Of a stretch of DNA of 11,131 bases, positions 163-11,131 are shown one piece after another. The translations under genes were made by a program, and so were the position numbers. The notes beneath the pieces are model-generated. The model saw only the letters and a list, made by a program, of their open reading frames with translations. It did not search any database and was not told the origin of the DNA. Numbering within the stretch: the stretch's first letter is position 1; each line of letters begins with the position of its first letter. The DNA comes from a virus: UHGV virus genome UHGV-0072311. One strand, written 5' to 3'.

Positions 163-164
163 GT

Positions 165-192
165 CCATAAGAAAGCCCCTCCGGAGAGGGGC
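165..192 (-). terminator. Terminator-like hairpin on - strand (GCCCCTC / CGGA / GAGGGGC, then UUUCUUAU)
   Basis: Seen in sequence: 7-bp GC stem 175-181/186-192 with a tetraloop. On the - strand it is followed by a T-rich but interrupted tract (rc of 165-174). It lies downstream of the pR'-like promoter in the late direction. Confidence 0.3.
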
Positions 193-625
193 TGGAGAGT
201 GGCGCTATGTGCCATTGCATGGTGCCGGGTGCCTCCCGGTGAGTTCAGTATCAGCACCTGAACCCGCACAGAAAGGATAAGGGTCGGTGACAAAACACCA
301 GTTGCTGATTGCCCCTCCGCACAGGGGGATTCACCATGCCAGTTTCTTTTAACAAACTCCCCGCAAACCAGACAACAGTCAACCGCCTGAATTGTGAGGT
401 ATTTAAAAATTTCAACGGGTAACTGATACCCTGCTAATCGCCTGATGATGGATTGTAATCAACAACAGAAAGCACCATTTCTGGCGTTAATTTTATTTCT
501 TTCATCGCTTTACCTTAGGGATAGAGCCTGTTCGCGTAGATATGACAGCCAAGAGCGGAGCGATGTTTCCACCACCATATCTCAGGCCCATATCACTAAG
601 ACTCTTGTTTTGATTGCACGCGAAT

Positions 626-3341: not shown

Positions 3342-3503
3342 GACAACGCCCTCTGGTTGATGAATTTAACTATCACCACCGTCAGGTGCAAATCTTTGGG
3401 TGGTGAGACGTACAGGGTTTGCACTACCGGATCAACCAACCGGCGAGCCTTTCGGCTCCCCCATACGCCCCACCATAATTCAGATGTGCGTGTGCTTACG
3501 ACA

Positions 3504-3527
3504 ACAAAAAACACGCTCGCGGCGTGT
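3504..3527 (-). terminator. Intrinsic terminator on the - strand (ACACGC-CGCGA-GCGTGT then U5GUUGU)
   Basis: Seen in sequence: 6-bp stem 3511-3516/3522-3527, followed on the - strand by TTTTTGTTGT. It would stop - strand transcription that runs antisense through the + strand island before it reaches the ORF6N gene. Confidence 0.5.
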
Positions 3528-3609
3528 GTCTGTCGCGGTTGAATATCCGGGGTGCAAATCCCGACGCCAGATTTTGCTGGCGTGCGAAGAATATAATCCC
3601 GGATATGTG

Positions 3610-8515: not shown

Positions 8516-8587
8516 GCCCTGCCTGAATATCAGATATTCATCAGGATTTGCTCAGAACGTCCGGCCCCAACCGGACGTTTTTTATTT
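8508..8587 (+). ncRNA. oop: oop-like antisense RNA overlapping the 3' end of the cII-like gene
   Basis: Seen in sequence: GGATTTGCTCAGAACG followed by a perfect 9-bp stem AACGTCCGG / CCCCAA / CCGGACGTT and TTTTTTATTTG at 8556-8587, with an upstream hairpin TGAATAT-CAG-ATATTCA at 8524-8540. Order and sequence closely resemble lambda oop RNA and its terminator as I recall them. The 5' end and promoter are not mapped. Confidence 0.6.
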
Positions 8588-8826
8588 GCATGAACGTTAA
8601 TGGCATGCTGGAAAGCCCGGCTGATCGGACTGATATCAGATGCCATCTGGAACGCGCATAAAATCGCCGCGATGTATCGCCAGTCGGTACGACTGACCTT
8701 CGATTCATGGCAGCCAATCATCTTTGCCAGTCCCCTTTGCGTCAGAGCTGACAGGTTGATGAGTAAATCTGTTTCTGCGCGATCAACGTCACGCTGTGAT
8801 AGTTTGCTGTAACTTGTTTGTGTCAT
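8530..8826 (-). CDS. cII: CII-family transcriptional activator (non-lambda allele)
   Basis: The position (first gene after cro/nutR) and the C-terminus ...ANKKRPVGAGRSEQILMNI resemble lambda CII (...TNKKRPAATERSEQIQMEF). The N-terminal two-thirds differ from lambda. An antisense oop-like terminator is embedded in the 3' end, as in lambda. Confidence 0.7.
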   Translation of the reverse strand: MTQTSYSKLSQRDVDRAETDLLINLSALTQRGLAKMIGCHESKVSRTDWRYIAAILCAFQMASDISPISRAFQHAINVHANKKRPVGAGRSEQILMNI

Positions 8827-8911: not shown

Positions 8912-8957
8912 TCGCTTTGTCAGCGACGTAGGACGAATGTCCATTGTGAAAAGAGCG
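8912..8957 (-). promoter_or_regulatory. nutR-like site: boxA-like CGCTCTTTTC and boxB hairpin UCGCUGACAAAGCGA
   Basis: Seen on the - strand: boxA-like CGCTCTTTTC (rc of 8948-8957) just after the cro stop, and the hairpin TCGCTGACAAAGCGA (rc of 8912-8926). The GACAA loop in a 5-bp GC stem matches the P22-type boxB as I recall it, not lambda boxB. The 21-nt boxA-boxB spacing is longer than in lambda. Confidence 0.5.
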
Positions 8958-8964
8958 GTGTTAC

Positions 8965-9165
8965 TTATGCAGTTGTTTTTTTGTTACTTGGGAAGGGCTT
9001 TATTTCTTCCGCATAAACGCTTCCATCAGCGTTTATAGTTAAAAAAATCTTTCGGCCTGCATGAATGGCCTTGTTAATCGCGCTTTGATATACGCCGAGA
9101 TCTTTAGCCGTCTTGGTTTGCCCAAAGCGTATTGCATAATCTTTCAGGGTTATGCGTTGTTCCAT
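8965..9165 (-). CDS. cro: Cro repressor (lambda-type)
   Basis: 66-aa product essentially identical to lambda Cro as recalled ([64 protein letters not shown]). SD AAGGAGG lies upstream. Confidence 0.95.
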
Positions 9166-9262: not shown

Positions 9263-9979
<717 letters not shown>

Positions 9980-10010: not shown

Positions 10011-10772
10011 ATGACACAGTTTCAACTTGCATTAATCGCTAGAGAAGTTGATGGAGAAGTCATCCATCTTCGCACCAAAGACGGATACATCAATGCCACC
10101 GCGATGTGCAAGTCTGCGGGGAAGCTACTTGCTGACTATACACGACTAAAAACAACACAAGATTTTTTTGATGAATTATCACGCGATATGGGGATTCCCA
10201 TATCGGAGTTAATTCAATCATTTAAAGGCGGAAGAGCAGAGAATCAAGGGACTTGGGTTCATCCAGACATCGCAATTAATTTAGCTCAGTGGCTATCTCC
10301 AAAATTTGCAGTGCAAGTATCGAGATGGGTGCGTGAGTGGATGTCAGGTGAAAGAGCGCCTGCCGAACTCCCTATCCACCTTAAGCGGTATATGACAAAC
10401 CGAGGCAGAGTTCCTCATACGCACTTTTCTATGCTTAATGAACTGACGTTTAACTTGGTTGCGCCACTTGAACAGGCCGGATATACGCTGCCAGAAAAAA
10501 TGGTCCCTGATATTTCAGAGGGTAGGGTTTTCTCGCAATGGCTCCGTGACAACCGGGGGGTTGAGCCGAAGACATTCCCAACATATAACCATGAGTACCC
10601 AGATGGCCGGACATTCCCGGTACGTCTATACCCAAACGAATATCTTGCAGATTTCAAACAACACTTCAACGAAGTGTGGCTGCCTCAGTACGCTCCTAAA
10701 TATTTTGCTGAACGAGACCAAAGGGCATTGACGTTGATTGAGAAAATCATGCTACCTGACCTTGATTCCTAA
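10011..10772 (+). CDS. KilA-N-domain protein in the cI operon, at the position lambda uses for rexA/rexB
   Basis: 253-aa ORF starting 32 bp after the cI stop with SD AGGA. The N-terminal ~115 aa fit the KilA-N pattern (GYINATAMCKSAGKLLADYTRLKTTQDFFDEL...GTWVHPDIAINLAQWLSPKFAVQVSRWV). I recognise no family for the C-terminal ~135 aa. A strong terminator follows. Confidence 0.75.
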   Translation: MTQFQLALIAREVDGEVIHLRTKDGYINATAMCKSAGKLLADYTRLKTTQDFFDELSRDMGIPISELIQSFKGGRAENQGTWVHPDIAINLAQWLSPKFAVQVSRWVREWMSGERAPAELPIHLKRYMTNRGRVPHTHFSMLNELTFNLVAPLEQAGYTLPEKMVPDISEGRVFSQWLRDNRGVEPKTFPTYNHEYPDGRTFPVRLYPNEYLADFKQHFNEVWLPQYAPKYFAERDQRALTLIEKIMLPDLDS

Positions 10773-10780
10773 ATGTTATT

Positions 10781-10807
10781 CCCGGCCACAGAGCCGGGTT
10801 TTCTTTG
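10781..10807 (+). terminator. Intrinsic terminator ending the cI operon (timm-equivalent)
   Basis: Seen in sequence: CCCGGC-CACAGA-GCCGGG (10781-10798) followed by TTTTCTTTG. Confidence 0.7.
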
Positions 10808-10958: not shown

Positions 10959-11027
10959 TAACCATCTGCGGTGATAAATTATCTCTGGCGGTGTTGACAT
11001 AAATACCACTGGCGGTGATACTAAACA
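10959..11027 (+). promoter_or_regulatory. Lambda left operator OL3-OL2-OL1 with promoter pL (-35 TTGACA, -10 GATACT), oriented toward the window end
   Basis: Seen in sequence: ACCATCTGCGGTGATAAATTATCTCTGGCGGTGTTGACATAAATACCACTGGCGGTGATACT matches lambda OL/pL as recalled. The N-leader begins downstream, and the window ends before any N gene. Confidence 0.9.
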
Positions 11028-11090
11028 CATCAGCAGGACGCACTACTCACCAGGGCGGTGAATATACAACGATTCAAATATGAATCTACG

Positions 11091-11105
11091 GCGCTGACAA
11101 AGCGC
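11091..11105 (+). promoter_or_regulatory. nutL boxB hairpin GCGCUGACAAAGCGC (P22-type)
   Basis: Seen in sequence: a perfect 5-bp stem with a GACAA loop in the pL leader. It is identical to the P22 boxB-left sequence as I remember it and has the same loop as the nutR hairpin at 8912-8926. No clear CGCTCTTA-type boxA was found upstream. Confidence 0.55.
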
Positions 11106-11131
11106 AATAACCAAAGTGAACTTTGGGGTGT

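What the first reader, a model, noticed from the sequence alone, without database searches (positions are those of the whole stretch)
11071..11086. Perfect inverted repeat GATTCA-AATA-TGAATC in the pL leader just upstream of boxB
Seen in sequence: a 6-bp perfect inverted repeat with a 4-nt spacer lies 4 nt before the nutL boxB hairpin, where a boxA element would be expected. It could be an RNA hairpin or a protein-binding site that affects N-dependent antitermination, or it could be fortuitous.
Basis: seen in the sequence. Interest (0 to 1): 0.2.

Follow-up and report, generated by a model that had tools for sequence, protein, structure and literature searches.

The report
Known H-19B-type nutL spacer hairpin
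The small inverted repeat is real and encodes an RNA hairpin just before the N-binding boxB hairpin, but it is the spacer dyad already described for Shiga-toxin phage H-19B, so it is ordinary.

Summary
A 6-bp repeat alone is only marginally unusual (3-6% of shuffled leaders have one). Comparison settles it. The leader matches phage PhiR5_2 at 100%, HK97/mEp234/HK106 at about 98% and H-19B/933W-type Stx phages at 98-99%. It occurs in 447 of 5,426 complete E. coli genomes.

In lambda, P22-type and a third related leader class, boxA sits in this slot. Here boxA and its short spacer are replaced by ATATACAAC-dyad-TACG, and no boxA is recognisable in nutL. The window's own nutR has a different-sequence hairpin (GGAC-ATTC-GTCC) at the same distance from its boxB. 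Two further different stems sit in the same place in nut-like sites of satellite-like islands. Variation among about 117 nutL copies falls only in the central 6 nt.

It is therefore the RNA spacer hairpin of an H-19B-type NUT site, which always accompanies H-19B-type N. Published H-19B work, partly recalled from memory, suggests it is an accessory structural element, not an N recognition determinant. Already known; low interest. One side lead: arrays of nut sites of several specificities between int and alpA of PICI-like islands.

The parts
10960..11022 (+). oL3-oL2-oL1 operators and the pL promoter (-35 TTGACA 10994-10999, -10 GATACT 11017-11022); transcript +1 at 11029
   Evidence: Sequence read. 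Coordinates transferred from the annotated mEp234 immunity-region record EF120460, which is 98.5% identical. The same arrangement is seen in lambda.
11039..11047 (+). CGCACTACT, labelled 'putative nutL boxA' by depositors; probably not a boxA
   Evidence: Annotated in EF120460, and it is the left end of 'nutL' in GQ499363. The homologous block CGCACTGAC/CGCACTACT is also present in lambda and in class-C leaders, where the real boxA lies about 20 nt further downstream. It matches CGCTCTTTA at only 5 of 9 positions, and no + strand match with 2 or fewer mismatches exists in the leader.
11047..11061 (+). Upstream leader hairpin TCACC-AGGGC-GGTGA, shared scaffold with the lambda and class-C leaders
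   Evidence: Predicted in the minimum-free-energy fold of the leader. The homologous CACC...GGTG is present in lambda and class C. In those phages boxA follows it directly.
11062..11070 (+). ATATACAAC: the slot where boxA lies in relatives. It ends in the ACAAY motif that also precedes the nutR and satellite spacer hairpins.
   Evidence: Alignment A1. nutR has CACAAT. The satellite sites have AACAAC and AYAAAC.
11071..11086 (+). The finding: dyad GATTCA-AATA-TGAATC, the NUTL spacer hairpin (6 bp, 4-nt loop)
   Evidence: H-19B has GATTCG in the left arm. There are five variants among about 117 loci, all confined to the central 6 nt.
11087..11090 (+). TACG linker between the spacer hairpin and boxB; identical in nutL, nutR and the satellite nut sites
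11091..11105 (+). nutL boxB GCGCTGACAAAGCGC (5-bp stem, GACAA loop), the N-binding hairpin
   Evidence: Annotated as boxB in EF120460. Identical to the boxB annotated for P22/L nutL in X94331.
11111..11126 (+). Downstream leader hairpin CCAAAGT-GA-ACTTTGG
   Evidence: (repeat I2). The lambda counterpart is CAAAGC-AGAA-GGCTTTG.
8949..8957 (-). nutR boxA CGCTCTTTT
   Evidence: H-19B has CGCTATTTT here.
8931..8942 (-). nutR spacer hairpin GGAC-ATTC-GTCC, followed by TACG (8930-8927). It is the structural counterpart of the finding.
   Evidence: Identical in H-19B. One variant, GGGC/GTCC, keeps a G.U pair.
8912..8926 (-). nutR boxB TCGCTGACAAAGCGA

Best explanation
The inverted repeat is the DNA image of the spacer hairpin of an H-19B-type NUTL site. 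On the pL transcript, nucleotides +43 to +58 fold into a small hairpin (GAUUCA/UGAAUC, loop AAUA). After a fixed UACG linker comes boxB, which the arginine-rich motif of H-19B-type N binds. This much is shown by sequence, comparison and prediction.

In this nut family the architecture is (boxA)-ACAAY-hairpin-UACG-boxB. In nutL the boxA has been lost or replaced, which fits the reported independence of H-19B N from BOXA, NusB and S10.

Inferred, and partly from the literature: the hairpin is not a sequence-specific recognition element. It is an accessory structural element that keeps the unusually long spacer compact and base-paired. The spacer then cannot pair with neighbouring sequences, and boxB and the single-stranded flanks (ACAAY, UACG) stay available to N and NusA. 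Its stem matters only in that half a stem left unpaired can misfold the NUT RNA.
For: Identity:
- The leader is 100% identical to PhiR5_2 and 98-99% identical to H-19B, 933W-type Stx phages, HK97, mEp234 and HK106.
- H-19B nutL differs in the dyad only by A to G at the loop-closing position, giving a G.U pair.
- N downstream of the identical leader in PhiR5_2 is 98% identical to H-19B N and carries the ARM RSRRRER quoted for H-19B N.
- All 35 class-B loci, and 79 of 80 loci selected for H-19B-type N, have dyad-TACG-boxB. The remaining locus showed no boxB.

RNA structure:
- Minimum-free-energy and centroid folds of the leader keep the hairpin next to boxB.
- The window's nutR has GGAC-AUUC-GUCC ending at the same UACG.
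- Nut-like sites in PICI-like islands have GAAGAU-GGA-AUCUUC and GAAGG-N9-CCUUC (5 Watson-Crick pairs; the predicted fold adds a closing G.U), each followed by UACG and a boxB.
- The chance of such anchored perfect stems is 0.0024, 0.019, 0.0032 and 0.0086 respectively.
- Variation among about 117 nutL copies is confined to the loop and the loop-closing pair, and the outer 5 bp never change.

Experiment, H-19B nutR (PMC3526286):
- N with NusA/NusG protects the spacer and boxB but not boxA.
- Rho alone protects the spacer.

From memory, Neely & Friedman 2000, Mol Microbiol 38:1074. The title was seen in reference lists but the text is not held.
- H-19B nut spacers have dyad symmetries.
- Changing one arm inactivates the NUT RNA, and compensatory changes restore it.
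- Deleting the dyad has little effect.
- BOXA, NusB and S10 are not required.
Against: - Thermodynamic folding does not show that boxB needs protection. Complementing either arm, or deleting the dyad, leaves P(boxB stem) at 0.98-0.99 in nutL, and the hairpin does not raise it in nutR.
- The whole H-19B-type leader is so uniform (10 variable positions out of 103) that stem invariance within nutL says little on its own.
- The variation is equally compatible with a GATTC-N6-GAATC DNA palindrome.
- No compensatory double change was seen inside one orthologous hairpin. The support comes from paralogous or analogous sites.
Confidence: 0.75

Rival explanations
1. Active substitute for boxA. The hairpin, with its ACAAY and UACG flanks, is a positive assembly element. 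It might be a NusA S1/KH contact or a pause-type hairpin that helps N-NusA load, and this would explain why H-19B-type N needs neither boxA nor NusB/S10 at nutL.
For: The hairpin occupies the boxA/spacer slot in nutL, and no boxA is detectable there. N with NusA/NusG protects the hairpin-containing spacer of H-19B nutR but not boxA. The dyad-UACG-boxB unit is carried intact, with different flanks, into satellite nut arrays. The architecture co-segregates strictly with H-19B-type N, whose region after the ARM differs from P22-type N.
Against: By my recollection of Neely & Friedman 2000, deletion of the dyad had little effect and the compensatory changes used altered sequences, which argues against a required or sequence-specific role. 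The stems differ completely between nutL, nutR and the satellite sites, so any recognition would have to be of shape only.
Confidence: 0.12
2. Neutral relic. The hairpin potential has no function of its own and persists because the whole leader is a young, nearly clonal mosaic module spreading among E. coli phages.
For: A 6-bp repeat arises in 3-6% of shuffled leaders. The leader is 98-100% identical across all carriers. Arm changes and deletion have no in-silico effect on boxB.
Against: Four different stems end exactly at the UACG linker in nutL, nutR and two satellite sites. The joint chance is far below 1e-6, even allowing several possible offsets. Within nutL the only mutational hot spot is the apical 6 nt, while both 5-bp arms are untouched in about 117 copies. 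By recollection, one-arm mutations in H-19B inactivate the NUT RNA.
Confidence: 0.08
3. DNA-level site. GATTC-N6-GAATC is a palindromic operator for a dimeric phage or host protein acting at +43 to +58 of pL, for example as a roadblock or repressor.
For: The outer 5-bp arms form a perfect palindrome that is invariant in every copy, and all variation lies in the central 6 bp. That pattern is also typical of dimer-binding sites.
Against: The sequence is not repeated at pR/nutR, which instead has a different hairpin in the same register to boxB. The satellite sites keep the position and pairing but not the sequence. The register is tied to an RNA element (UACG-boxB), not to the promoter. I know of no matching regulator, and the resemblance to an ArgR box has the half-sites in the opposite order (my own comparison from memory).
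Confidence: 0.05

Closest known systems
NUTL/NUTR of Shiga-toxin phage H-19B (also 933W, HK97, mEp234, HK106), with spacer 'dyad symmetries' (Neely & Friedman 2000, Mol Microbiol 38:1074)
   Same: Same leader (98-99%), same boxB, same TACG linker. The dyad is identical at 15 of 16 positions (GATTCA here, GATTCG in H-19B). nutR has the same GGAC-ATTC-GTCC dyad, and the N protein is 98% identical in the phage with the identical leader.
   Different: The loop-closing pair is A-U here and G.U in H-19B. The nutR boxA is CGCTCTTTT here and CGCTATTTT in H-19B. The immunity region is lambda-type (cI/oL/pL) rather than H-19B/933W-type, which is ordinary lambdoid mosaicism.
P22 / phage L nutL (boxA CGCTCTTTA, short spacer, boxB-left GCGCUGACAAAGCGC)
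   Same: Identical 15-nt boxB. The transcript starts with the same ATCAGCAGGA. The N proteins are homologous, with related arginine-rich motifs and C-termini.
   Different: P22-type nutL has a canonical boxA followed by a spacer of about 10 nt, with no dyad. The window has no boxA and has a 29-nt replacement carrying the hairpin. The N protein is P22 gp24-type there, not H-19B-type.
Lambda nutL / nutR (boxA CGCTCTTA(A), spacer of 7 nt in nutL and 9 nt in nutR, boxB GCCCUGAARAAGGGC)
   Same: Same operators and pL, the same first ~33 nt of leader including the CACC...GGTG hairpin, the same downstream hairpin, and the same overall logic of an N-binding hairpin in the leader.
   Different: Lambda has boxA immediately after the GGTGA hairpin, a short unstructured spacer, and a different boxB and N specificity. 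Lambda N needs boxA, NusB and S10 (established knowledge). The H-19B type reportedly does not.

Membership tests
H-19B-type NUT site | boxB GCGCUGACAAAGCGC (nutL) and UCGCUGACAAAGCGA (nutR) | tested here: met
   Exact matches at 11091-11105 (+) and 8926-8912 (-). Identical to the H-19B record AF034975.
H-19B-type NUT site | Dyad symmetry in the spacer, ending 4 nt (UACG) before boxB, in both nutL and nutR | tested here: met
   nutL has GATTCA-AATA-TGAATC-TACG and nutR has GGAC-ATTC-GTCC-TACG. The same elements are in H-19B. The hairpins are predicted in the minimum-free-energy folds.
H-19B-type NUT site | Cognate H-19B-type N protein (127 aa, ARM RSRRRER) encoded downstream of nutL | tested here: inconclusive
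   The window ends at 11131, before the N gene. In PhiR5_2, whose 202 nt across pL/nutL are 100% identical to the window, N is 98% identical to H-19B N. 35 of 35 class-B loci and 79 of 80 N-selected loci pair this N with the dyad.
H-19B-type NUT site | N-dependent antitermination independent of BOXA, NusB and S10; the dyad is dispensable, but one-arm mutants are defective | not testable with these tools
   These are genetic and biochemical properties. They are recalled from Neely & Friedman 2000, whose text is not held. In vitro H-19B N works with NusA plus NusG (PMC3526286 and PMC4499122).
P22-type nutL | boxB-left GCGCUGACAAAGCGC | tested here: met
   Identical to the boxB annotated in phage L by identity with P22.
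P22-type nutL | boxA CGCTCTTTA followed by a spacer of about 10 nt before boxB, with no secondary structure in the spacer | tested here: not met
   There is no + strand match to YGCTCTTTA with 2 or fewer mismatches in 11029-11131. Alignment A1 shows boxA plus spacer replaced by ATATACAAC-dyad-TACG.
Canonical lambda-type nut site (boxA-spacer-boxB) | Recognisable boxA 5' of boxB | tested here: not met
   Not met for nutL. The depositor's 'putative boxA' CGCACTACT is a leader block that lambda and class C also carry in addition to their real boxA. Met for nutR: CGCTCTTTT at 8957-8949.
Rfam RNA families | Match to a curated covariance model over 11029-11131 | tested here: not met
   No hit in the leader at E <= 1. 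The only hits lie elsewhere in the window.

The most novel reading that the evidence does not exclude
ACAAY-hairpin-UACG-boxB is a self-sufficient, boxA-independent N/NusA loading module in which the hairpin's shape contributes positively. The same unit, including the window's exact dyad, has been co-opted into arrays of nut sites of several boxB specificities (lambda-type, P22/H-19B-type and another) between int and alpA of PICI-like satellite islands. That would let a satellite sense the N proteins of different helper phages by antitermination.
Probability: 0.15. Interest if true: 0.55.

Novelty: already known. Interest (0 to 1): 0.12.

Why it matters
For this window it matters little. It identifies the antitermination system as H-19B type, not P22 type and not lambda type, inside a lambda-immunity phage. 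It also corrects two likely annotation slips: calling nutL 'P22-type', and labelling CGCACTACT as boxA.

H-19B/933W-type N/nut controls early transcription that leads to Shiga-toxin expression, and the same module sits in about 8% of complete E. coli genomes. A correct anatomy of its NUT sites is therefore useful.

The comparative data add modestly to what I recall of the literature. The hairpin-UACG-boxB arrangement recurs with four unrelated stems, and it is not confined to H-19B-type phages.

Tried and rejected
- **Rfam.** A scan of the whole window at E <= 1 found nothing in the leader.
- **Primary paper.** I could not read Neely & Friedman 2000 or Cheeran 2007; neither is held. Searches for H-19B with 'dyad symmetry' found nothing, and the citing papers give only the title. 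One literature search was wasted because 'nutL' matched 'nutlin'.
- **Species-representative genomes.** A scan for TACG+boxB gave 18 chance hits in unrelated taxa and one 251-nt contaminant-like contig. No new diversity came from it.
- **N-protein search.** Searching IMG/VR for more divergent relatives returned only 99-100% identical proteins, so no orthologous compensatory changes were available.
- **In-silico mutagenesis.** Complementing either arm, both arms, or deleting the dyad left boxB folding unaffected. The 'protects boxB' idea could not be reproduced thermodynamically.
- **Satellite boxB.** CAGCTGAAAAGCTG with the TACG linker was found only in the islands themselves, with no phage source in IMG/VR.
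- **Terminator or attenuator.** Rejected: the stem is weak and no U-tract follows it.
- **Mini-ORF.** Rejected. ATGAATCTACGGCGCTGA begins in the right arm, but I see no Shine-Dalgarno sequence upstream (read).
- **Coding constraint.** Rejected: no ORF of 40 aa or more covers 11071-11086.
- **ArgR-box resemblance.** Rejected: the half-sites are in the wrong order (from memory).
- **Formal covariation count.** Not attempted. The stems and loops differ in length, so an automatic alignment would not put them in register.

Full report
**Observation**

Positions 11071-11086 read GATTCA AATA TGAATC. They are followed by TACG (11087-11090) and the hairpin GCGCTGACAAAGCGC (11091-11105).

Upstream lie lambda-type operators and pL: -35 TTGACA at 10994-10999, -10 GATACT at 11017-11022, and the transcript start at 11029. 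I placed these by transferring the annotation of the 98.5%-identical mEp234 immunity record EF120460.

Taken alone it is not remarkable.
- Perfect 6-bp repeats with 3-8 nt loops occur 52 times in the window, against 18 +/- 4.6 in dinucleotide shuffles.
- 6% of shuffled leaders, and 3% of shuffled 30-nt upstream segments, contain one.
- The RNA hairpin is worth only -3.6 kcal/mol.

**Context**

The window is a lambdoid early region drawn in the reverse of the lambda map.
- cII at 8530-8826 (-)
- cro at 8965-9165 (-)
- cI at 9266-9979 (+)
- a KilA-N-domain ORF at 10011-10772 (+), in the place of rexAB
- then oL/pL and nutL

The window stops before N. In phage PhiR5_2 the 202 nt across pL/nutL are 100% identical to the window, and a 127-aa N gene follows. 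That N is 98% identical to H-19B N. It carries the ARM RSRRRER that Muteeb et al. quote for H-19B N (PMC3526286).

**What sits in this slot in relatives**

I scanned IMG/VR for the exact boxB and then read the lambda, phage L and H-19B records. This gives three leader classes that share the same boxB.
- **P22/L type:** ...GGCAA-CGCTCTTTAAC-TCGATGAT-boxB.
- **Class C:** shares the first ~34 nt with the window, then GGTGA-TGCTCTTTAACA-ACATTGCA-boxB.
- **The window's class:** GGTGA-ATATACAAC-GATTCRAATATGAATC-TACG-boxB.

Lambda itself has GGTGA-CGCTCTTAA-AAATTAA-boxB on the same scaffold. So boxA and its short spacer have been replaced by a 29-nt segment that contains the dyad.

No + strand match to YGCTCTTTA with 2 or fewer mismatches exists in 11029-11131. 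Depositors labelled CGCACTACT (11039-11047) as 'putative boxA'. That block is common leader sequence, which lambda and class C carry in addition to their real boxA. I do not think it is a boxA.

**Identity**

H-19B nutL (AF034975) is the same sequence, except that the left arm is GATTCG. The loop-closing pair is then G.U instead of A-U.

The window's nutR on the minus strand reads CGCTCTTTT-CACAAT-GGAC-ATTC-GTCC-TACG-TCGCTGACAAAGCGA. This equals H-19B nutR apart from one boxA base.

- The leader is present at 98-100% identity in H-19B, 933W-type and other Stx phages, HK97, mEp234 and HK106.
- It is present in 447 of 5,426 complete E. coli genomes.
- Leader class and N type co-segregate without exception. 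35 of 35 class-B loci encode H-19B-type N, while classes A and C encode P22-type N.
- Of 80 further loci selected by H-19B-type N, 79 have dyad-TACG-boxB upstream. The remaining locus showed no boxB.

**RNA or DNA?**

Within nutL the evidence is weak, because the module is nearly clonal. Among 37 leaders only 10 of 103 positions vary. Five of those fall in the apical 6 nt of the hairpin, and both 5-bp outer arms are invariant. The five dyad variants seen in all loci are central AATA, GAGA, AACA, AGCA-A, and G at the closing position. This pattern fits an RNA hairpin with a free loop. It fits a GATTC-N6-GAATC DNA palindrome equally well.

The comparison between sites is what decides. Each of the following ends exactly at a UACG linker before a boxB hairpin and is preceded by ACAAY or AAAC.
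- nutR carries GGAC/GUCC.
- One nut-like site in PICI-like islands carries GAAGAU/AUCUUC.
- Another carries GAAGG/CCUUC.

The chance of a perfect stem of the observed length anchored at that position is 0.0024 (nutL), 0.019 (nutR), 0.0032 and 0.0086. Position and pairing are conserved while sequence is not, which is the signature of an RNA structure. One nutR variant (GGGC/GUCC) keeps the pairing through G.U.

[quoted passage not shown] N with NusA/NusG protected the spacer and boxB but not boxA, and Rho alone protected the spacer (PMC3526286).

**What it does**

[quoted passage not shown] I saw the title in reference lists, but the text is not held. From memory of its abstract:
- H-19B nut spacers have dyad symmetries that are absent from other nut sites.
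- Changing one arm inactivates the NUT RNA, and compensatory changes restore activity.
- Deleting the dyad has little effect.
- BOXA, NusB and S10 are not needed.

I therefore commit to an accessory structural role. The hairpin keeps a long spacer folded and inert, so that boxB and the short single-stranded flanks are presented to N and NusA. An unpaired half-stem can misfold the site.

My own folding only partly agrees. The hairpin is in the minimum-free-energy and centroid structures. But complementing either arm, or deleting the dyad, does not lower the predicted probability of the boxB stem: it stays at 0.98-0.99 in nutL and 0.79-0.95 in nutR. That result is consistent with 'deletion has little effect'. 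It gives no independent support for a protective role.

In nutR the left arm GGAC can alternatively pair with a GUCC/GCCC just after boxB. In nutL the left arm can pair with an upstream UGAAU at 11059-11063. Alternative structures of the kind named in the paper's title are therefore available.

**Rivals**
- **Positive substitute for boxA (0.12).** N with NusA/NusG protects the spacer, nutL has no boxA, and the unit is portable. The recalled deletion result and the complete lack of stem sequence conservation argue against it.
- **Neutral relic (0.08).** The recurrence of anchored hairpins with unrelated stems argues against it.
- **DNA operator (0.05).** The site's register is tied to boxB, and the other sites have different sequences.

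**Verdict**

'P22-type' is wrong for the site as a whole. This is the already-described H-19B-type NUT spacer dyad, here in a lambda-immunity mosaic. Novelty: already known. Interest: low.

**Side observation**

The same dyad-TACG-boxB unit (ATACAAT-GATTCAAATATGAATC-TACG-boxB-AAT) occurs inside dense arrays of nut-like sites. The arrays lie between a P4-type integrase gene and alpA in islands inserted at a tRNA-Thr gene next to proA. Those islands also carry antA, ash and a TOPRIM/DUF927 primase.

- The arrays combine boxA-like sequences with boxBs of lambda nutR type (GCCCTGAAAAAGGGC), near-lambda nutL type (GCCCTGGAGAAGGGC), P22/H-19B type, and another type (CAGCTGAAAAGCTG or CTGCTGAAAAGCGG).
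- The long form is present in 29 complete E. coli genomes. The short form is seen in sampled rows of the same search, but its overall count was not determined.
- Downstream, before alpA, lie several strong hairpins and a C-rich unstructured stretch.
- I found no paper in the held library that links PICIs or alpA with nut sites or antitermination.

A satellite that reads the N proteins of several helper phages through antitermination is an attractive hypothesis. It lies outside this window and is untested.

Noticed in passing
L098 1480-1840 (+), L045 1190-1335 (+); also L143-L147, L016 and L150 9001-9426: Dense arrays of nut-like sites with different boxB specificities lie between a P4-type integrase gene and alpA. 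The boxBs are lambda nutR-type GCCCTGAAAAAGGGC, near-lambda nutL GCCCTGGAGAAGGGC, P22/H-19B-type GCGCTGACAAAGCGC or TCGCTGACAAAGCGG, and CAGCTGAAAAGCTG. Most are flanked by boxA-like TGCTCTTTAACA or CGCTCTTTTA. The islands are PICI-like, sit at tRNA-Thr next to proA, and carry antA, ash and a TOPRIM/DUF927 primase. One unit is the window's exact dyad-TACG-boxB. The arrays may sense helper-phage N proteins by antitermination into alpA. I found no description in the held literature.
   Followed up: partly
window 11039-11047: Public records (EF120460; GQ499363 nutL left end) label CGCACTACT as the putative nutL boxA. The homologous block is also present in lambda (CGCACTGAC) and in class-C leaders, which have a genuine boxA about 20 nt further on. 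The label is probably wrong, and H-19B-type nutL has no boxA.
   Followed up: yes
window 8942-8905 (-); L062: In nutR the left arm GGAC can pair either with the spacer GUCC or with a GUCC just 3' of boxB (GUCCCAAG). Natural variants have GCCCC there. The one nutR with left arm GGGC (L062) has GCCCC downstream, and the predicted fold switches to the structure that encloses boxB. This may be the 'alternative NUT RNA structure' of the H-19B literature.
   Followed up: partly
window 10011-10806: A 253-aa ORF with a KilA-N domain occupies the rexA/rexB position between cI and pL. It is followed by a terminator-like hairpin, CCGGCCACAGAGCCGGGTTTTCTTTG. mEp234 carries a different cargo here (hicB plus a hypothetical gene), so this is a variable moron slot.
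   Followed up: partly
window 163-368 (-), 3396-3480 (-), 3506-3596 (-): Rfam matches above the gathering score are STnc100 sRNA (143 bits), C4 antisense RNA (74 bits) and isrK (75 bits). The overlapping c4-a1b1 target element scores 42.2 bits, just below its gathering score of 46.7. Together they suggest a P1/P7-type C4/ant-like antisense immunity module elsewhere in the same prophage region.
   Followed up: no
L138 (NZ_JPLE01000293.1, 251 nt, 'Xanthomonas pisi DSM 18956'): A 251-nt contig in a Xanthomonas assembly carries the H-19B-type nutL (dyad-TACG-boxB and flanks). This is almost certainly contamination from E. coli or phage DNA. Otherwise the module is absent from the species-representative genomes scanned.
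   Followed up: partly
window 11029-11131 compared with lambda 35582-35480: The pL leaders of lambda, P22-like class C and the H-19B type share a scaffold: a 5' ATCAGCAGGACGCAC block, a CACC...GGTG hairpin, and a 3' CAAAG...CTTTGGGGTG hairpin. Only the central boxA-spacer-boxB cassette is exchanged. The recombination joints appear to lie immediately after GGTGA and a few nt after boxB.
   Followed up: partly
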